Shown: positions 53,310 through 57,745 of the stretch, piece by piece
Position numbering within the stretch: the stretch's first letter is position 1
Layout of the letters: the number at the start of each line of letters is the position of its first letter
Assembly (NCBI GenBank): GCA_963827685.1
Contig: CAWHBU010000002.1
Coordinates: forward strand, 512,001-576,000
Source of the DNA: an uncultured delta proteobacterium
GTDB lineage: Bacteria > Desulfobacterota > BSN033 > UBA1163
Reading direction: 5' to 3'
Length of the DNA stretch: 64,000 bases
Program-made: the position numbers and the translations under genes
The notes under the pieces: model-generated
Database searches by the model: none
What the model saw: the letters and a program-made list of their open reading frames with translations, nothing else
Told to the model about the DNA's origin: nothing

Positions 53310-54593
53310 CTAAGATAAAGGATTTTTGGCGACCCGGACCAGTTCTTGGAGGTTTCTGAGTAAACGTCTTGGTTTTCCTTGTGAGAGTTCCTTTTCGGAA
53401 TGGAATCCAGTGGGAAGGGCATAAACATCAACTCGTGCCTGTTTTCCTGTCTCAATATCTGTGAGGGTGTCTCCGACGAAGATCGCCTCCTCTGGCGGGA
53501 GACCCATCTCCCTCAAGACGGCGTGGATCATATCCGGGAAAGGCTTGTTTCGTATGACATCCCCGGCACCGATCACAGATTTAAAATAGTCCGACACACC
53601 CAAGTGCGTGAGCACCCCTCTTGAGAAGCGACCGAATTTATTTGAAGCAATCCCCAGGATGGCACCCTCGGAATGGAGTATTTTTAGAACCTCTTTGGCA
53701 CCATCTAAAAAGTGGGTTTTATTGAGATAGACCTCCTCATATTTCTTTCTCATGACGGGAATACCCTTTAAAACTTCCTCGGGTGAGAAGAACGGAGAAA
53801 GTGTCGCTTCCAAATCTGCCCTGAGATGTATTTTGAGATCCTGAAAAGGAAAGATCTCTTTCCCGAGATATTGAAAGCACTCTTTCAGCCCCAGATAGAT
53901 CGCCTCATAGGATTCGATCAGCGTTCCGTCGAGGTCAAAGATAATTCCATGAATCTGCTTCTTCAGATCATTGAGAATCTCTTGAAAATCCTTGAAAAAA
54001 TGGCAGGTGATATCCTTTTTGATGCAATAGGGGTAAAGGGAATCTTTGGCAAAAACGAAGTCTGCTTCCTGAGCCGCACACCTGTCGGAAAGGCCATTTC
54101 CGATGAAAAAAATGGAATCATATTCTTTTCGGTGGATTTGCACCAGCTTCTTTTTGCAAGTCCCGCAAAGGCCACACTCTTCATCGGAGTGAGGAAAAGA
54201 GACGTCTATGCCTTCCCCCTCCCGGAAATGGGTACAGTTGGCGTAGAATGGGATCTTTGAGAGATGATGAATTTCAAGAATCTTCTTAATATAGAAATCG
54301 AGACCATCGCTGACAATTTTTATATCGATGCCCTTTTCACGACAATACTGGTAGAAAGCAGGAAAGGAGGGGTCGATGTCGGAATGCTCTTGGACAAAAC
54401 GGAGAACGGTTGATTCATCCCCCTTGAGGATTTTTGCGATTCGGGAGTAAGCCTCTCTTGAGCCGATCTTTCCGTCGCGGAAATCCCGGTCGATCCCTTC
54501 CCAATTTCCTGAAGTAAATTGATTGACCAGGACATATCCCGTATCCCGGACGCTGACCGTCCCATCGAAATCACAGAGGATCAATTTTCTCAT
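53310..54593 (-). CDS. Tandem HAD fusion: MtnX-like phosphatase plus Gph-like HAD-IA hydrolase
   Basis: Two DxDGT motifs (CDFDGT, FDLDGT); VSDG, CGTCK; KPFPD, VGD...D. Confidence 0.85.
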   Translation of the reverse strand: MRKLILCDFDGTVSVRDTGYVLVNQFTSGNWEGIDRDFRDGKIGSREAYSRIAKILKGDESTVLRFVQEHSDIDPSFPAFYQYCREKGIDIKIVSDGLDFYIKKILEIHHLSKIPFYANCTHFREGEGIDVSFPHSDEECGLCGTCKKKLVQIHRKEYDSIFFIGNGLSDRCAAQEADFVFAKDSLYPYCIKKDITCHFFKDFQEILNDLKKQIHGIIFDLDGTLIESYEAIYLGLKECFQYLGKEIFPFQDLKIHLRADLEATLSPFFSPEEVLKGIPVMRKKYEEVYLNKTHFLDGAKEVLKILHSEGAILGIASNKFGRFSRGVLTHLGVSDYFKSVIGAGDVIRNKPFPDMIHAVLREMGLPPEEAIFVGDTLTDIETGKQARVDVYALPTGFHSEKELSQGKPRRLLRNLQELVRVAKNPLS

Positions 54594-54920
54594 TGCAATT
54601 TAAACAATAATAGAATCTACAGTAAAATTCCAAATCCCAAGCACCAAATCACAAACAATACCAAATTTCAAATATCCAATGTTCAAACGAATCAAGCTTC
54701 TTGTTTCGAATTCAGAATTTGGGACATTGGAATTTATTAAGACCGCATCTGAAGACCCCGTCCTGTGGACGGGGATGAAAGGTGCGTCTGCTGAAAGCAG
54801 AAAAAATAAATCAGATGCTGAAACAAGTTCAGACCTTATGATTGAAAAAGAAAGGCAAGTCTCGAGTTTTCGGATATAGTTTTTGGTACGACGCAAAAAC
54901 TCACCGAAAGGAGGCTTGCC

Positions 54921-55997
54921 ATGAGTAATGTTAAGAGTAGCAGACTTGATTTTACGGGTCAACCTATTTACATCGGTCTGGATGTCCACAAAAAGAGCTG
55001 GAGTGTAAGTATCTTTTCGAAGTATGGGGAGTATAAAACGTTTAACCAACCCCCTGAAGCCGACAAACTGGTCCATTACCTGAGCCATTATTTTCCGGGC
55101 GCTCTGTATTATGCGGTTTATGAAGCGGGCTATTGCGGCTTCTGGATCCATGATCAATTGAGGAAGAAAGGGATCCAATGTCTCGTGGTTAACCCGGCTG
55201 ATATCCCGACGAAGAATAAAGAGCGAAGGACCAAACGGGATCCGATCGATTGCCGCAAATTGGCCCGGAGTCTTCGCAATGGGGAGATCGAGGGCATCTA
55301 TGTCCCTTGCAGATCGAAACTGGAAGATCGCACTCTGATCCGGACCCGTCAGAGCATGGTGAGGAAGCAGACGCGATGTAAAAACCAGATCAAAGGGATG
55401 CTGCTGTTTTATGGAGTGGTGATTCCAGAGGAAAGAGAGATGGGCCATTGGAGCCGACGATTCATCCAGTGGATCGAGCGGATTCGGATGGAAAGAGCCA
55501 GCGGGGATATAGCCCTGAAGGCCCACTTGGAGGAACTGAACCATCTGCGCCAGCTGATCGCCAGTTTGAACCGGGCCATCCTGCACCTGGCCAGGACGGA
55601 GGAGTACCGGCCTTTTGTCCGTTTGTTGAAGACGGTCCCCGGGATCAGCACGCTGACAGCCATGATCTTGCTGGCGGAACTGGGTGAGATTACGCGTTTC
55701 CCGTCTCTGGACGAGTTGTCCTGTTACGTTGGACTGATTCCAGACACTCAAGAAAGTGGTGAGAAACAATACGTCGGAGGAATTACGCAGCGGCGCCATG
55801 CGCAGTTGAGGTGGCTGCTCATTGAAGCCTCCTGGGTTGCAGTCCGCAAGGATCCGGCGCTTCTGATGGCCTTCCAGGAGTACTGCAAAAGGATGCGCAA
55901 GACGAAGGCCATCGTCAAGATCGCCAGGAAACTTCTGAACCGGATCCGCTACGTTCTCAAAAATCAGGCGGAATACGTTCCGTGTGTCATTGAGTAA
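54921..55997 (+). CDS. IS110-family recombinase/transposase (DEDD + Tnp20)
   Basis: GLDVHK, YEAG, KRDPIDCRKLA, TVPGIS, YVGLIP...ESG catalytic Ser. Confidence 0.96.
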   Translation: MSNVKSSRLDFTGQPIYIGLDVHKKSWSVSIFSKYGEYKTFNQPPEADKLVHYLSHYFPGALYYAVYEAGYCGFWIHDQLRKKGIQCLVVNPADIPTKNKERRTKRDPIDCRKLARSLRNGEIEGIYVPCRSKLEDRTLIRTRQSMVRKQTRCKNQIKGMLLFYGVVIPEEREMGHWSRRFIQWIERIRMERASGDIALKAHLEELNHLRQLIASLNRAILHLARTEEYRPFVRLLKTVPGISTLTAMILLAELGEITRFPSLDELSCYVGLIPDTQESGEKQYVGGITQRRHAQLRWLLIEASWVAVRKDPALLMAFQEYCKRMRKTKAIVKIARKLLNRIRYVLKNQAEYVPCVIE

Positions 55998-56009
55998 CTC
56001 TAAATGCAT

Positions 56010-56190
56010 TGGGACATGACCCGATCTGATAAATCGCTTCCGTGGGCAACGATATGTCATGCTTGCAGCTCATCGCAAGATGATGGCTGCTACAGTTCAG
56101 ACTCCGTGCCCACACTTTAAAATATGACAAGGTTTTGCAGCTATCCGAAAACGATATGTCTGCTAATAGAAGGTTGATTTTAAAGATTGG
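56010..56190 (+). ncRNA. Bridge/seek RNA with target- and donor-binding loops
   Basis: Loop 1 (stem gtgggca/tgcccac) holds tgtcatgct and agttcag = target halves. Loop 2 (stem ctttaaaat/attttaaag) holds aaggttt and atagaag = circle-junction halves. Ends approximate. Confidence 0.8.
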
Positions 56191-56409
56191 TGCTGTCCTT
56201 AAAAACATTATCTAATACCACGTCTATGCTGATTGGGACTTGCTTTTCAACATAGAAGCATGACACAACATAGAAGCATGACACGACGGTTCGGTTCTGG
56301 TCTTTTTGTCATCCCGAACTTGTTTCGGGATCTCGGTTTTGGGTTTTAGAATTTAGGTTTTAAAGCCCCGCCCTGGCGGGATTGGAATTTGGGATTTGGG
56401 TATTCAAGT

Positions 56410-56928
56410 TTAGTCATCCCAACCGATCTTTTTCCTTTTGGTAACAGGGAGCTTGAACTTCTCTTTCAACCGCCTGACAACCAGGTCTGGAACCAATCCC
56501 TCCACACCGCCCCCTAATCTGGCAACCTCTTTGATCGTTCTGGAGGAGACGAAAAAATAGTCCTTACTGGTCATCATGAAGAGGGTATCCAGATGGGTGT
56601 TGAGGCTTCGATTCATAGAGGCCATATGAAATTCATATTCGAAGTCTGAGGTGGCCCGGAGGCCCCTTAAAATCACTTTGGCATTGGTCTTCGCTACATA
56701 GTCGACAAGAAGTCCCTTGAAACTGTCCACGATGACATTGGGTGTGTCCTTAAAGATGGTTTTGGTCATCTTCAGCCGTTCCTCAATGGTGAAGAGAGAA
56801 CGTTTTTCAACATTATTGGCAATGGCCACAATCACCTTGTCGAAGATCTCAAGACCCCTCTCGATGATATCAATATGACCATAGGTAATAGGATCAAACG
56901 AGCCCGCGTAGATGGCCACTTTTCCCAT
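56410..56928 (-). CDS. coaD: Phosphopantetheine adenylyltransferase
   Basis: YAGSFDPITYGH, RGLR..SDFEYE. Confidence 0.97.
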   Translation of the reverse strand: MGKVAIYAGSFDPITYGHIDIIERGLEIFDKVIVAIANNVEKRSLFTIEERLKMTKTIFKDTPNVIVDSFKGLLVDYVAKTNAKVILRGLRATSDFEYEFHMASMNRSLNTHLDTLFMMTSKDYFFVSSRTIKEVARLGGGVEGLVPDLVVRRLKEKFKLPVTKRKKIGWDD

Positions 56929-57008
56929 ATCTTTTTCTTCTCCTTTCTTCTTTTGTGCCATTCCATTCCCCCCGTTTATGGGCCTGCACCAGGCAGGCGA
57001 AAATGGGT

Positions 57009-57599: not shown

Positions 57600-57745
57600 T
57601 TACTTAAATTCCAAATTACAAATCCCAAATCCCAAACAAATTTCAATCTCCAATTTCCAAATGACCAAAACTGTTTTGTTCATGGTTTCGAATTTTGGCC
57701 ATTGGAATTTATTTGATGCTTGGTGCTTGTGATTTGGTGCTTATC
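57600..57745. repeat. Heptamer-built intergenic palindrome (uninterrupted copy)
   Basis: aaattccaaattacaaatcccaaatccc...ttggtgcttgtgatttggtgctt; relatives at 54625-54735/56380-56408 and 58215-58335. Confidence 0.75.

What the first reader, a model, noticed from the sequence alone, without database searches (positions are those of the whole stretch)
54813..56283. IS110 (IS1111-type) element whose bridge RNA guides can be read directly and match a REP target
Seen: excising 54833-56258 restores the REP AGATGCTGAAACAAGTTC-AG-CATGACA, with AG as the core. The long right end holds two consecutive internal loops. Loop 1 carries TGTCATGCT (56055-63, reverse complement of target AGCATGACA) and AGTTCAG (56094-100, left target half). 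Loop 2 carries AAGGTTT (56129-35, pairs with left-end AGACCTT given one G-U) and ATAGAAG (56166-72, the right-end terminus). Both loops share a TGCAGCT...CTGCTA inner stem, suggesting one loop arose by duplication. The neighbouring REP copy reads GTTCGGGATGAC, mismatching the guide at the core, and is unoccupied. Established: IS110/IS1111 recombinases use such bispecific RNAs. Inference: this is an intact, reprogrammable recombinase-RNA pair with an AG core aimed at this REP family.
Basis: partly seen in the sequence, partly recalled or inferred. Interest (0 to 1): 0.85.

Follow-up and report, generated by a model that had tools for sequence, protein, structure and literature searches.

The report
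RNA-guided IS110-family insertion sequence in a palindrome
This is an apparently intact jumping gene of the known IS110/IS1111 kind whose own small RNA spells out both the palindromic site it sits in and its own ends; the reading is right, but such elements have been well described since 2024.

Summary
Window 54833-56258 (1426 bp) is an IS110-family element. It has an 88-nt left end, a 358-aa DEDD/Tnp recombinase gene (54921-55997) and a 261-nt right end. An AG core flanks it on both sides, and it splits a REP-like hairpin.

The right end folds into two stem/internal-loop/stem modules (56039-56193). In about 15 homologous elements from other genomes:
- the 5' arm of loop 1 tracks the right flank, and the 3' arm tracks the left flank (0 of 20000 permutations reach the observed match on either side);
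- 18 of 37 stem pairs show compensatory changes.

This is a bridge/seekRNA with the IS1111-type layout: RNA downstream of the gene, and the top-strand guide 5' of the bottom-strand guide.

Caveats:
- it is a single copy, and no RNA data cover the guide region;
- the "REP" family is small here (about 12 copies);
- the donor-loop right guide reads the AG core only through a G-U wobble, and in 15 of 16 homologues it is not fully complementary to AG;
- the target lies inside a decayed miniature IS200-like element.

Verdict: a new member of a known kind, of modest interest.

The parts
54813..54832 (+). Left part of the split REP-like hairpin (left target). The last 7 nt, AGTTCAG, equal the left target guide.
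54831..54832 (+). AG core, left copy
   Evidence: AG precedes the left end in all homologues with a left flank
54833..54920 (+). Left end, 88 nt. Starts ACCTTATGATT, which is conserved in the homologues.
54850..54861 (+). Left sub-terminal inverted repeat (GAAAGGCAAGTC)
   Evidence: I15: 12 nt, 92% complementary to 56237-56248
54854..54920 (+). 5'-UTR hairpin. 54854-63 pairs with 54911-20, covering the Shine-Dalgarno GGAGG (54910-14) just before the ATG.
   Evidence: 8 pairs, 4 with compensatory changes in 15 homologues
54921..55997 (+). Recombinase gene, 358 aa. Candidate catalytic residues D21, E68, D107, D110 and S279-G280.
55998..56258 (+). Right end, 261 nt non-coding
56039..56193 (+). 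Bridge/seekRNA: two stem/internal-loop/stem modules
   Evidence: the only R1 match in the genome, 156 bits; the model was trained on it
56042..56113 (+). Target-binding module. Outer stem 56042-51 with 56104-13; inner stem 56065-74 with 56079-90.
   Evidence: helices 1-3
56055..56063 (+). Right target guide TGTCATGCT, complementary to the top strand AG+CATGACA
56094..56100 (+). Left target guide AGTTCAG, identical to the top strand and so able to pair with the bottom strand
56115..56185 (+). Donor-binding module. Outer stem 56115-23 with 56177-85; inner stem 56137-45 with 56153-63.
   Evidence: helices 4-5
56129..56135 (+). Putative right donor guide. AAGGT pairs with left-end ACCTT; TT faces the AG core (one G-U wobble).
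   Evidence: conserved in homologues but without covariation
56166..56172 (+). Left donor guide ATAGAAG, identical to the right-end terminus plus core
   Evidence: L025 and L026 have ATAAAAG in both places
56237..56248 (+). Right sub-terminal inverted repeat (GACTTGCTTTTC)
   Evidence: I15
56257..56258 (+). AG core, right copy
56259..56265 (+). Right target CATGACA, which completes the hairpin
   Evidence: table 5c, 3 of 6 uninterrupted sites in metagenome contigs continue with CATGACA after 54832
56248..56283 (+). 18-bp unit (11 bp of right end plus 7 bp of target) present twice in tandem
   Evidence: D3; absent from L010, L011, L012 and L014
56307..56333 (-). Second, inverted REP-like hairpin. 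It is unoccupied, has 2 mismatches to the 14-nt target, and forms a BIME-like pair with the first.
54732..54805 (+). Remnant of the left end of an IS200-like element
   Evidence: about 92% identical over 72-74 nt to the left ends of three full copies whose ORFs score 139 bits to Y1_Tnp
56356..56372 (+). Remnant of the right-end hairpin of the same IS200-like family
   Evidence: 17/17 nt to all three full copies, collinear with the left-end match

Best explanation
Window 54833-56258 is a structurally intact insertion sequence of the IS110 family with the IS1111-type layout. Its DEDD/Ser recombinase is guided by a bispecific RNA of about 155 nt (bridge RNA, also called seekRNA) encoded in the long right end.

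Loop 1 reads the target. [quoted passage not shown] Loop 2 reads the element's own joined ends. Its 3' arm equals ATAGA+AG of the right end, and its 5' arm pairs with ACCTT of the left end. Recombination at the AG core between a circular copy and the 14-bp site places the element inside the 3' arm of a REP-like hairpin.

Shown here: the anatomy, the structure covariation and the guide/flank covariation. Inferred from characterised relatives: that the RNA is made, that it binds the protein, and that a circle forms. Also inferred: in a circle, TTGCTT (56240-45) and TATGAT (54837-42) would lie 17 nt apart and form a junction promoter. A conserved 5'-UTR hairpin would hold translation down.
For: - Protein: PF01548 (5.8e-15) and PF02371 (4.7e-22). 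NF033542 at 217 bits, cut-off 140. The nearest solved structures are the ISCro4 and IS621 transposases, and the alignment to ISCro4 shows the D/E/D/D and SG positions aligned.
- RNA structure on 16 homologues: 37 pairs, 18 with changes on both sides. 95.4% of cells are paired, against 83.7% when shuffled (0 of 500 shuffles reach it) and 37-42% when slid.
- Right guide against right flank: the longest exact match is 7-10 nt in 13 of 15 loci (mean 8.33). Across 198 cross-pairs the mean is 3.69 and the maximum 7.
- Left guide against left flank: 5-8 nt in 14 of 16 loci (mean 6.31), against 2.78 in 220 cross-pairs.
- With one representative per distinct guide (10 on each side), 0 of 20000 permutations reach the observed sum.
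- Left donor guide and right-end terminus change together (ATAGAAG to ATAAAAG) in L025 and L026.
- Sub-terminal inverted repeat of 12 nt, 92%.
- The order 'top-strand match 5' of the bottom-strand match', and the RNA lying downstream of the gene, are what Siddiquee et al. report for IS1111-type elements (PMC11187229, sections 6 and 9 read). Durrant et al. predict bridge RNAs in the right end of 93% of IS1111 elements (PMC11208160, passages).
- The R1 covariance model finds one RNA per homologous recombinase gene and no stray copy in this genome.
Against: - There is one copy only in the 5.2-Mb genome.
- Seven near-cognate sites with one mismatch, six of them with an intact AG, are all unoccupied.
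- No promoter for the RNA was found. The only consensus hit lies inside the RNA, and the scan found 1 site against 1.9 expected.
- The two donor-loop bases that should read the core are UU here (one wobble), and they are fully complementary to AG in only 1 of 16 homologues. This differs from the IS621 rule that all four guides include the core (PMC11208160 passage).
- In 2 of 15 loci (L020, L022) the right guide matches the flank poorly (4 nt). In 2 of 16 loci (L024, L026) the left guide does (3 nt).
- The right junction carries an unexplained 18-bp tandem duplication.
- Rfam 15 has no matching family.
- The genome is a draft with 8% estimated contamination.
Confidence: 0.9

Rival explanations
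1. The anatomy is the same, but this copy is a stranded relic. It arrived once, has no exact target left in this genome, and no longer moves. The 18-bp junction duplication would be a sign of decay.
For: - It is a single copy.
- There is no exact 14-mer target elsewhere, and all 7 one-mismatch sites are empty.
- The duplicated right junction is absent from 4 close relatives.
Against: - The ORF is full length, with no stops.
- The window sequence shares every column that is invariant across the 16 RNA sequences (true by construction), and it shows no truncation of the kind seen in L018 or L023.
- Both ends match the conserved termini.
- A single copy is common for these elements: Siddiquee et al. 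found only one or two locations for 110 IS (PMC11187229 section 13).
Confidence: 0.3
2. It belongs to a lineage outside the IS1111 clade proper. This would be an IS110-type or separate subfamily that happens to carry its RNA downstream, so 'IS1111-type' describes the layout and not the ancestry.
For: - Siddiquee et al. note IS110-family groups with a downstream non-coding region, and give 330-350 aa as the range for IS1111 transposases (PMC11187229 section 6). This protein has 358 aa.
- The best identity to any plasmid-borne relative is 33%. Matches annotated ISEc11-family reach 29% over 70% of the protein, and IS4321-family 21% over 82%.
Against: - A sub-terminal inverted repeat is present.
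- The guide order is the IS1111 order.
- The right end is three times longer than the left.
Confidence: 0.25
3. The matches between the right end and the flanks do not act through RNA. They would be DNA-level signals, such as protein sites or single-stranded DNA hairpins.
For: No transcript evidence was obtained for this copy. Compensatory changes in the stems would also fit a folded DNA strand.
Against: Purified RNA is required and reprogrammable in relatives of both groups: IS621 (PMC11208160, PMC11208158) and ISEc11, ISPa11, ISKpn4 (PMC11187229). The same two-arm geometry is found here.
Confidence: 0.03

Closest known systems
IS1111-group elements with a downstream seekRNA/bridge RNA (ISEc11, ISPa11, ISKpn4; Siddiquee et al. 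2024, PMC11187229; ISPpu10 and ISPa11 in Durrant et al. 2024, PMC11208160)
   Same: - DEDD + Tnp recombinase.
- Short left end and long right end, with sub-terminal inverted repeats.
- RNA downstream of the gene.
- The top-strand-complementary segment lies 5' of the bottom-strand one.
- ISPa11 and ISPpu10 are listed among elements that sit in REPs.
   Different: The recombinase is at most 33% identical to any plasmid-borne relative found, and it has 358 aa. Phylogenetic placement was not tested. No experiment exists for this clade.
ISPpu9 of Pseudomonas putida (Pares-Guillen et al. 2025, PMC12288879; abstract and discussion read)
   Same: - It recombines at an AG dinucleotide.
- It inserts into REPs, mostly in inverted REP pairs (BIMEs), as here.
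- Its tandem or solo copies of an RNA module resemble the tandem RNA module seen in relative L013.
   Different: According to that discussion, the ISPpu9 bridge RNA is transcribed ahead of tnp, whereas here the RNA lies behind the gene. The ISPpu9 circles make no junction promoter, whereas here one is predicted (inference only).
IS621 of E. coli (Durrant et al. 2024; Hiraizumi et al. 2024, PMC11208158)
   Same: - Two-loop bispecific RNA, with each loop carrying a left and a right guide that overlap at a 2-nt core.
- REP target.
- DEDD + Ser chemistry (D11, E60, D102, D105, S241 in IS621).
   Different: - The RNA lies in the left end and the guide order is reversed.
- The core is CT rather than AG.
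- All four guides include the core in IS621, whereas in this clade the donor right guide mostly does not.

Membership tests
IS110 family (RNA-guided DEDD recombinases) | N-terminal DEDD RuvC-like domain plus C-terminal Tnp domain | tested here: met
   PF01548 at 55.8 bits (cut-off 29) and PF02371 at 78.6 bits (cut-off 21.3). NF033542 at 217 bits (cut-off 140).
IS110 family (RNA-guided DEDD recombinases) | Catalytic D, E, D, D and the Ser-Gly of the Tnp domain | tested here: met
   D21, E68, D107, D110 and S279-G280 (positions) align with D, E, D, D and SG of the ISCro4 transposase chain 9t56_A. That these are the catalytic positions is taken from IS621 by homology.
IS110 family (RNA-guided DEDD recombinases) | Site-specific insertion with the same dinucleotide core on both sides and no longer target duplication | tested here: met
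   AG at 54831-32 and at 56257-58. The same holds in the homologues. The 18-bp tandem repeat is a duplication of the junction, not a target-site duplication flanking the element.
IS1111 group | Longer non-coding region downstream of the recombinase gene | tested here: met
   Right end 261 nt, left end 88 nt.
IS1111 group | Sub-terminal inverted repeats of 7-17 bp | tested here: met
   54850-61 against 56237-48: 12 nt, 92% complementary (I15).
IS1111 group | In the RNA, the segment complementary to the top strand lies 5' of the segment complementary to the bottom strand | tested here: met
   56055-63 is complementary to the top strand and 56094-100 is identical to it. The rule is from PMC11187229 section 9.
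IS1111 group | Recombinase falls in the IS1111 branch of the family tree | not tested
   No ISfinder reference set was at hand. Pairwise only: 29% to an ISEc11-family match and 21% to IS4321-family matches. Length is 358 aa against the 330-350 quoted for the group.
Bridge RNA / seekRNA | Two internal loops, each closed by conserved stems | tested here: met
   five helices, 18 of 37 pairs with compensatory changes.
Bridge RNA / seekRNA | Target-loop arms covary with the flanks of the element | tested here: met
   0 of 20000 permutations on either side. Poor matches in 2 of 15 loci (right) and 2 of 16 loci (left).
Bridge RNA / seekRNA | Donor-loop arms match the element's own ends, core included | tested here: inconclusive
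   The left donor guide matches 7 of 7, with one joint change in L025 and L026. The right donor guide pairs with 5 of 5 non-core bases here and 4-5 of 5 in the homologues read, but its core bases are complementary to AG in 1 of 16.
Bridge RNA / seekRNA | The RNA is transcribed and bound by the recombinase | not testable with these tools
   Only assembled contigs of metatranscriptomes were available.
REP / BIME | Short extragenic imperfect palindrome, often in inverted pairs less than 51 bp apart | tested here: met
   A 7-bp stem and 5-nt loop lie between ORFs 53310-54593 and 56410-56961. The inverted partner is 23 bp away once the element and one repeat unit are removed.
REP / BIME | High copy number in the genome | tested here: not met
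   nhmmer: 12 copies at E <= 0.01 and 39 at E <= 10.

The most novel reading that the evidence does not exclude
This is a distinct, uncharacterised bridge-recombinase subfamily, spread across several phyla of sediment and wetland bacteria, with its own rules:
- an AG core that the donor right guide does not read;
- a left sub-terminal repeat that doubles as the arm of a hairpin hiding the ribosome-binding site;
- an RNA module that can duplicate on its own (tandem copy in L013);
- in some members, an extra structured RNA of about 190 nt, of no known family, in the left end.

The 18-bp junction duplication here could be a footprint of an aberrant guided event.
Probability: 0.25. Interest if true: 0.45.

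Novelty: new member of a known kind. Interest (0 to 1): 0.3.

Why it matters
It confirms that bridge-RNA guides can be read from raw sequence. It also gives a clean natural series of retargeted guides: about ten distinct guide pairs within one clade, each matched to its own flanks. That series could serve as a test set or as a source of new orthologues for bridge-recombinase engineering. It adds no new principle. RNA-guided targeting, REP targets, AG cores and downstream RNAs are all in print for relatives.

Tried and rejected
- **Rfam.** Nothing relevant was found on the element (only a chance SprX match at E 0.16) or on three relatives.
- **Promoter and terminator scan**. No more sites than in shuffles, so nothing is usable for the RNA's start.
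- **Public runs**. All four runs laid are assembled contigs. RNA-library contigs (X15, X17) lie on parts of the gene and on the flanks. The guide region 56011-56238 has next to no cover in them, which says nothing either way. Joints that skip the element (for example 54830 to 56275 in X2 and X15, sides of 25 and 19 nt) read as uninterrupted REP-like sites, but they may come from other loci or organisms. I do not count them as excision.
- **The 18-bp duplication.** The runs could neither confirm it nor show it to be an assembly slip.
- **Link between the REP-like family and a RAYT-type gene.** None of the 12 strict REP matches lies near the four divergent Y1_Tnp matches. This was checked by coordinates only.
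- **The 11-nt perfect complementarity between 54866-76 and 56142-52** (I16). It looked like an antisense link, but it is not conserved in L011, so I dropped it.
- **Recombinase tree for IS1111 membership.** Not built, because no IS110-group reference sequence could be obtained.
- **Papers.** Supplements were not seen. The ISfinder-wide tables of Durrant et al. and Siddiquee et al. may already list relatives of this clade.
- **Rows left out:**
  - L003, L004 and L005, which are the same loci as L011, L016 and L017;
  - L006, L007 and L009 (34-36% identity, no R1 match);
  - L023 (no RNA recognised);
  - L028 (gene fragment);
  - L029 (its RNA was found only later);
  - for the right side: L013, L015, L018 and L024 (no right end found by the anchor, or contig end);
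  - for the left side: L017, L019 and L025 (contig start).
Full report
**What is there.** The sequence shows an element from 54833 to 56258. On the left it is preceded by ...GATGCTGAAACAAGTTC-AG. It begins ACCTTATGATT and ends ...CAACATAGA-AG, and it is followed by CATGACA. Without the element the flanks form a hairpin (TGCTGAA / ACAAG / TTCAGCA). The AG dinucleotide stands on both sides, as expected for a two-base core. The single long ORF (54921-55997, 358 aa) carries PF01548 and PF02371. It scores 217 bits against NCBIfam NF033542, 'IS110 family RNA-guided transposase', whose cut-off is 140. Its nearest solved relatives are the ISCro4 and IS621 transposases. In the printed alignment to ISCro4, D21, E68, D107, D110 and S279-G280 (positions) face the D, E, D, D and SG of that chain. 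The catalytic role of these residues is taken from IS621. The left end is 88 nt and the right end 261 nt. A 12-nt sub-terminal inverted repeat (54850-61 with 56237-48, 92%) is present.

All four guide segments sit exactly where stated. The neighbouring inverted hairpin (56307-56333) differs from the 14-nt target at the first core base and the next base.

The 18 bases CAACATAGAAGCATGACA occur twice in tandem (56248-65 and 56266-83). The unit is 11 bp of right end plus 7 bp of target. Four close relatives have one copy only. I cannot explain the duplication.

**The RNA.** The single-sequence fold of 56000-56200 is more stable than shuffles (z = -3.28). I then collected relatives of the protein:
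- 20 loci from one genome per species (52-92% identity; from Thermodesulfobacteriota/Syntrophaceae-like, Nitrospirota, Chloroflexota, Ignavibacteriales, Bacteroidales and other assemblies);
- matches in 5 of 40 related genomes.

Sixteen right-end segments align well. RNAalifold predicts two modules, each with an outer stem, an internal loop and an inner stem. Of the 37 pairs, 18 show changes on both sides. 95.4% of cells are paired, against 83.7% after shuffling (0 of 500 shuffles reach it) and 37-42% when partners are slid. Both inner stems start with the invariant GCAGC and close with CUG. Whether this reflects duplication or a common protein contact cannot be told. A covariance model of the RNA finds one match in this genome, the element itself. 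It finds 8 matches in 6 of 55 genomes of the family, and every match lies beside a homologous gene.

**Guides and flanks.** I fixed the element ends by the conserved termini, not by the guides. I then compared each locus's loop-1 arms with its own flanks and with the flanks of other loci.
- **Right side.** The longest exact match between the reverse complement of the 5' arm and the 12 bases starting at the core is 7-10 in 13 of 15 loci and 4 in two (L020, L022). The mean is 8.33, against 3.69 in 198 cross-pairs.
- **Left side.** The common suffix of the 3' arm and the left flank is 5-8 in 14 of 16 loci and 3 in two (L024, L026). The mean is 6.31, against 2.78 in 220 cross-pairs.
- **Permutation.** With one locus per distinct guide (10 on each side), none of 20000 permutations reaches the observed sum.

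The targets differ widely (for example ...CCTTT-AG-AATGCGGC in L016, and ...CTCAC-AG-TTATACG in L021). Relatives at 87-92% protein identity (L012, L010) differ from the window element in just those arm bases that their flanks require. The core is AG throughout.

The 3' arm of the donor loop (ATAGAAG) equals the right-end terminus. In L025 and L026 both read ATAAAAG. The 5' arm of the donor loop is in the same register as that of the target loop. AAGGU faces ACCTT of the left end, and this is conserved. The two bases facing the core are UU here (one G-U wobble), and across 16 homologues they read UU, UC, AC, GC, AA or CU, so they are fully complementary to AG once. That departs from the IS621 description, in which all four guides include the core.

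**How it compares.** Durrant et al. (passages read) and Siddiquee et al. (sections 6, 9 and 13 read) established three points:
- IS110-family recombinases use such RNAs.
- IS1111-type elements carry the RNA downstream of the gene.
- In IS1111-type elements the top-strand match precedes the bottom-strand match.

All three hold here. ISPpu9 (abstract and discussion read) recombines at AG and prefers inverted REP pairs, as this element does. This is therefore a new member of a known kind. Placement within the IS1111 branch by phylogeny was not tested. The protein is at most 33% identical to any plasmid-borne relative and is slightly longer than the range quoted for IS1111.

**Context.** The 'REP' is a low-copy palindrome family: 12 copies at E <= 0.01. 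There is no other exact 14-nt target in the genome. All 7 sites with one mismatch lie in such hairpins and are empty.

The hairpin pair lies inside what looks like a decayed miniature IS200-like element:
- 54732-54805 is about 92% identical to the left ends of three full copies;
- 56356-72 matches their right-end hairpin;
- their ORFs score 139 bits against Y1_Tnp.

Metagenome contigs hold uninterrupted sites that run ...GTTCAG and then CATGACA (3 of 6 such strings). This fits the rebuilt target but is not evidence of excision.

**Likely working (inferred).** Excision to a circle would bring TTGCTT (56240-45) and TATGAT (54837-42) 17 nt apart. This would form a junction promoter of the kind known for ISEc11 and ISPpu10 (cited). 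In the mRNA leader, 54854-63 pairs with 54911-20 over the Shine-Dalgarno sequence. This hairpin has 8 pairs, 4 of them with compensatory changes in 15 homologues, which suggests translational restraint.

**Limits.** There is no transcript or activity evidence.

Noticed in passing
L010:55-352, L012:116-407, L014:26-313, L015:726-1000, L016:1235-1500, L017:6-280: Six relatives carry a conserved insertion of about 190 nt in the left end, placed between the two halves of the left sub-terminal repeat. It folds into a long multi-helix structure (76 predicted pairs over the whole left end) and matches no Rfam family. The window element lacks it.
   Followed up: partly
L013:2665-2816 and L013:3035-3142: A relative has a second, tandem copy of the bridge-RNA module, cut by the contig end. 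It begins right after a right-end terminus that is joined to the sequence preceding the first module. This resembles the solo and tandem ssr9 modules of ISPpu9.
   Followed up: partly
window 54854-54863 with 54911-54920: The left sub-terminal repeat pairs with the Shine-Dalgarno region just before the ATG. The hairpin has 8 pairs, 4 of them with compensatory changes in 15 homologues.
   Followed up: partly
window 56248-56283: There is an exact 18-bp tandem duplication of the junction between the right end and the target. Its right edge coincides with the end of the right-guide match. Its origin is unknown, and it was not checked against reads.
   Followed up: partly
window 54732-54805 and 56356-56372; G000 C2:114975-115513, C2:1198184-1198721, C4:880075-880611: The target hairpin pair sits between remnants of the two ends of an IS200-like element that has three full copies in the genome. 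The genome holds 25 Y1_Tnp matches in all, 18 of them with identical scores (143.1 bits).
   Followed up: partly
G000 C3:475184, C3:915810, C6:135724, C1:68949, C3:912481: There are five further IS110-family genes of another type (open frames of 402 aa) in the same genome. Their RNAs and targets were not examined.
   Followed up: no
window 54866-54876 with 56142-56152: There is an 11-nt perfect complementarity between the gene's leader and the tip of the donor-loop inner stem (I16). It is not conserved in L011.
   Followed up: partly
window 54600-54700, 56380-56410 and 57600-57730: The intergenic regions around the element share short A/T-rich repeats of the type CCAAATCCCAA / TTGGGATTTGG, which are found at dozens of places in the genome (short hits).
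   Followed up: no
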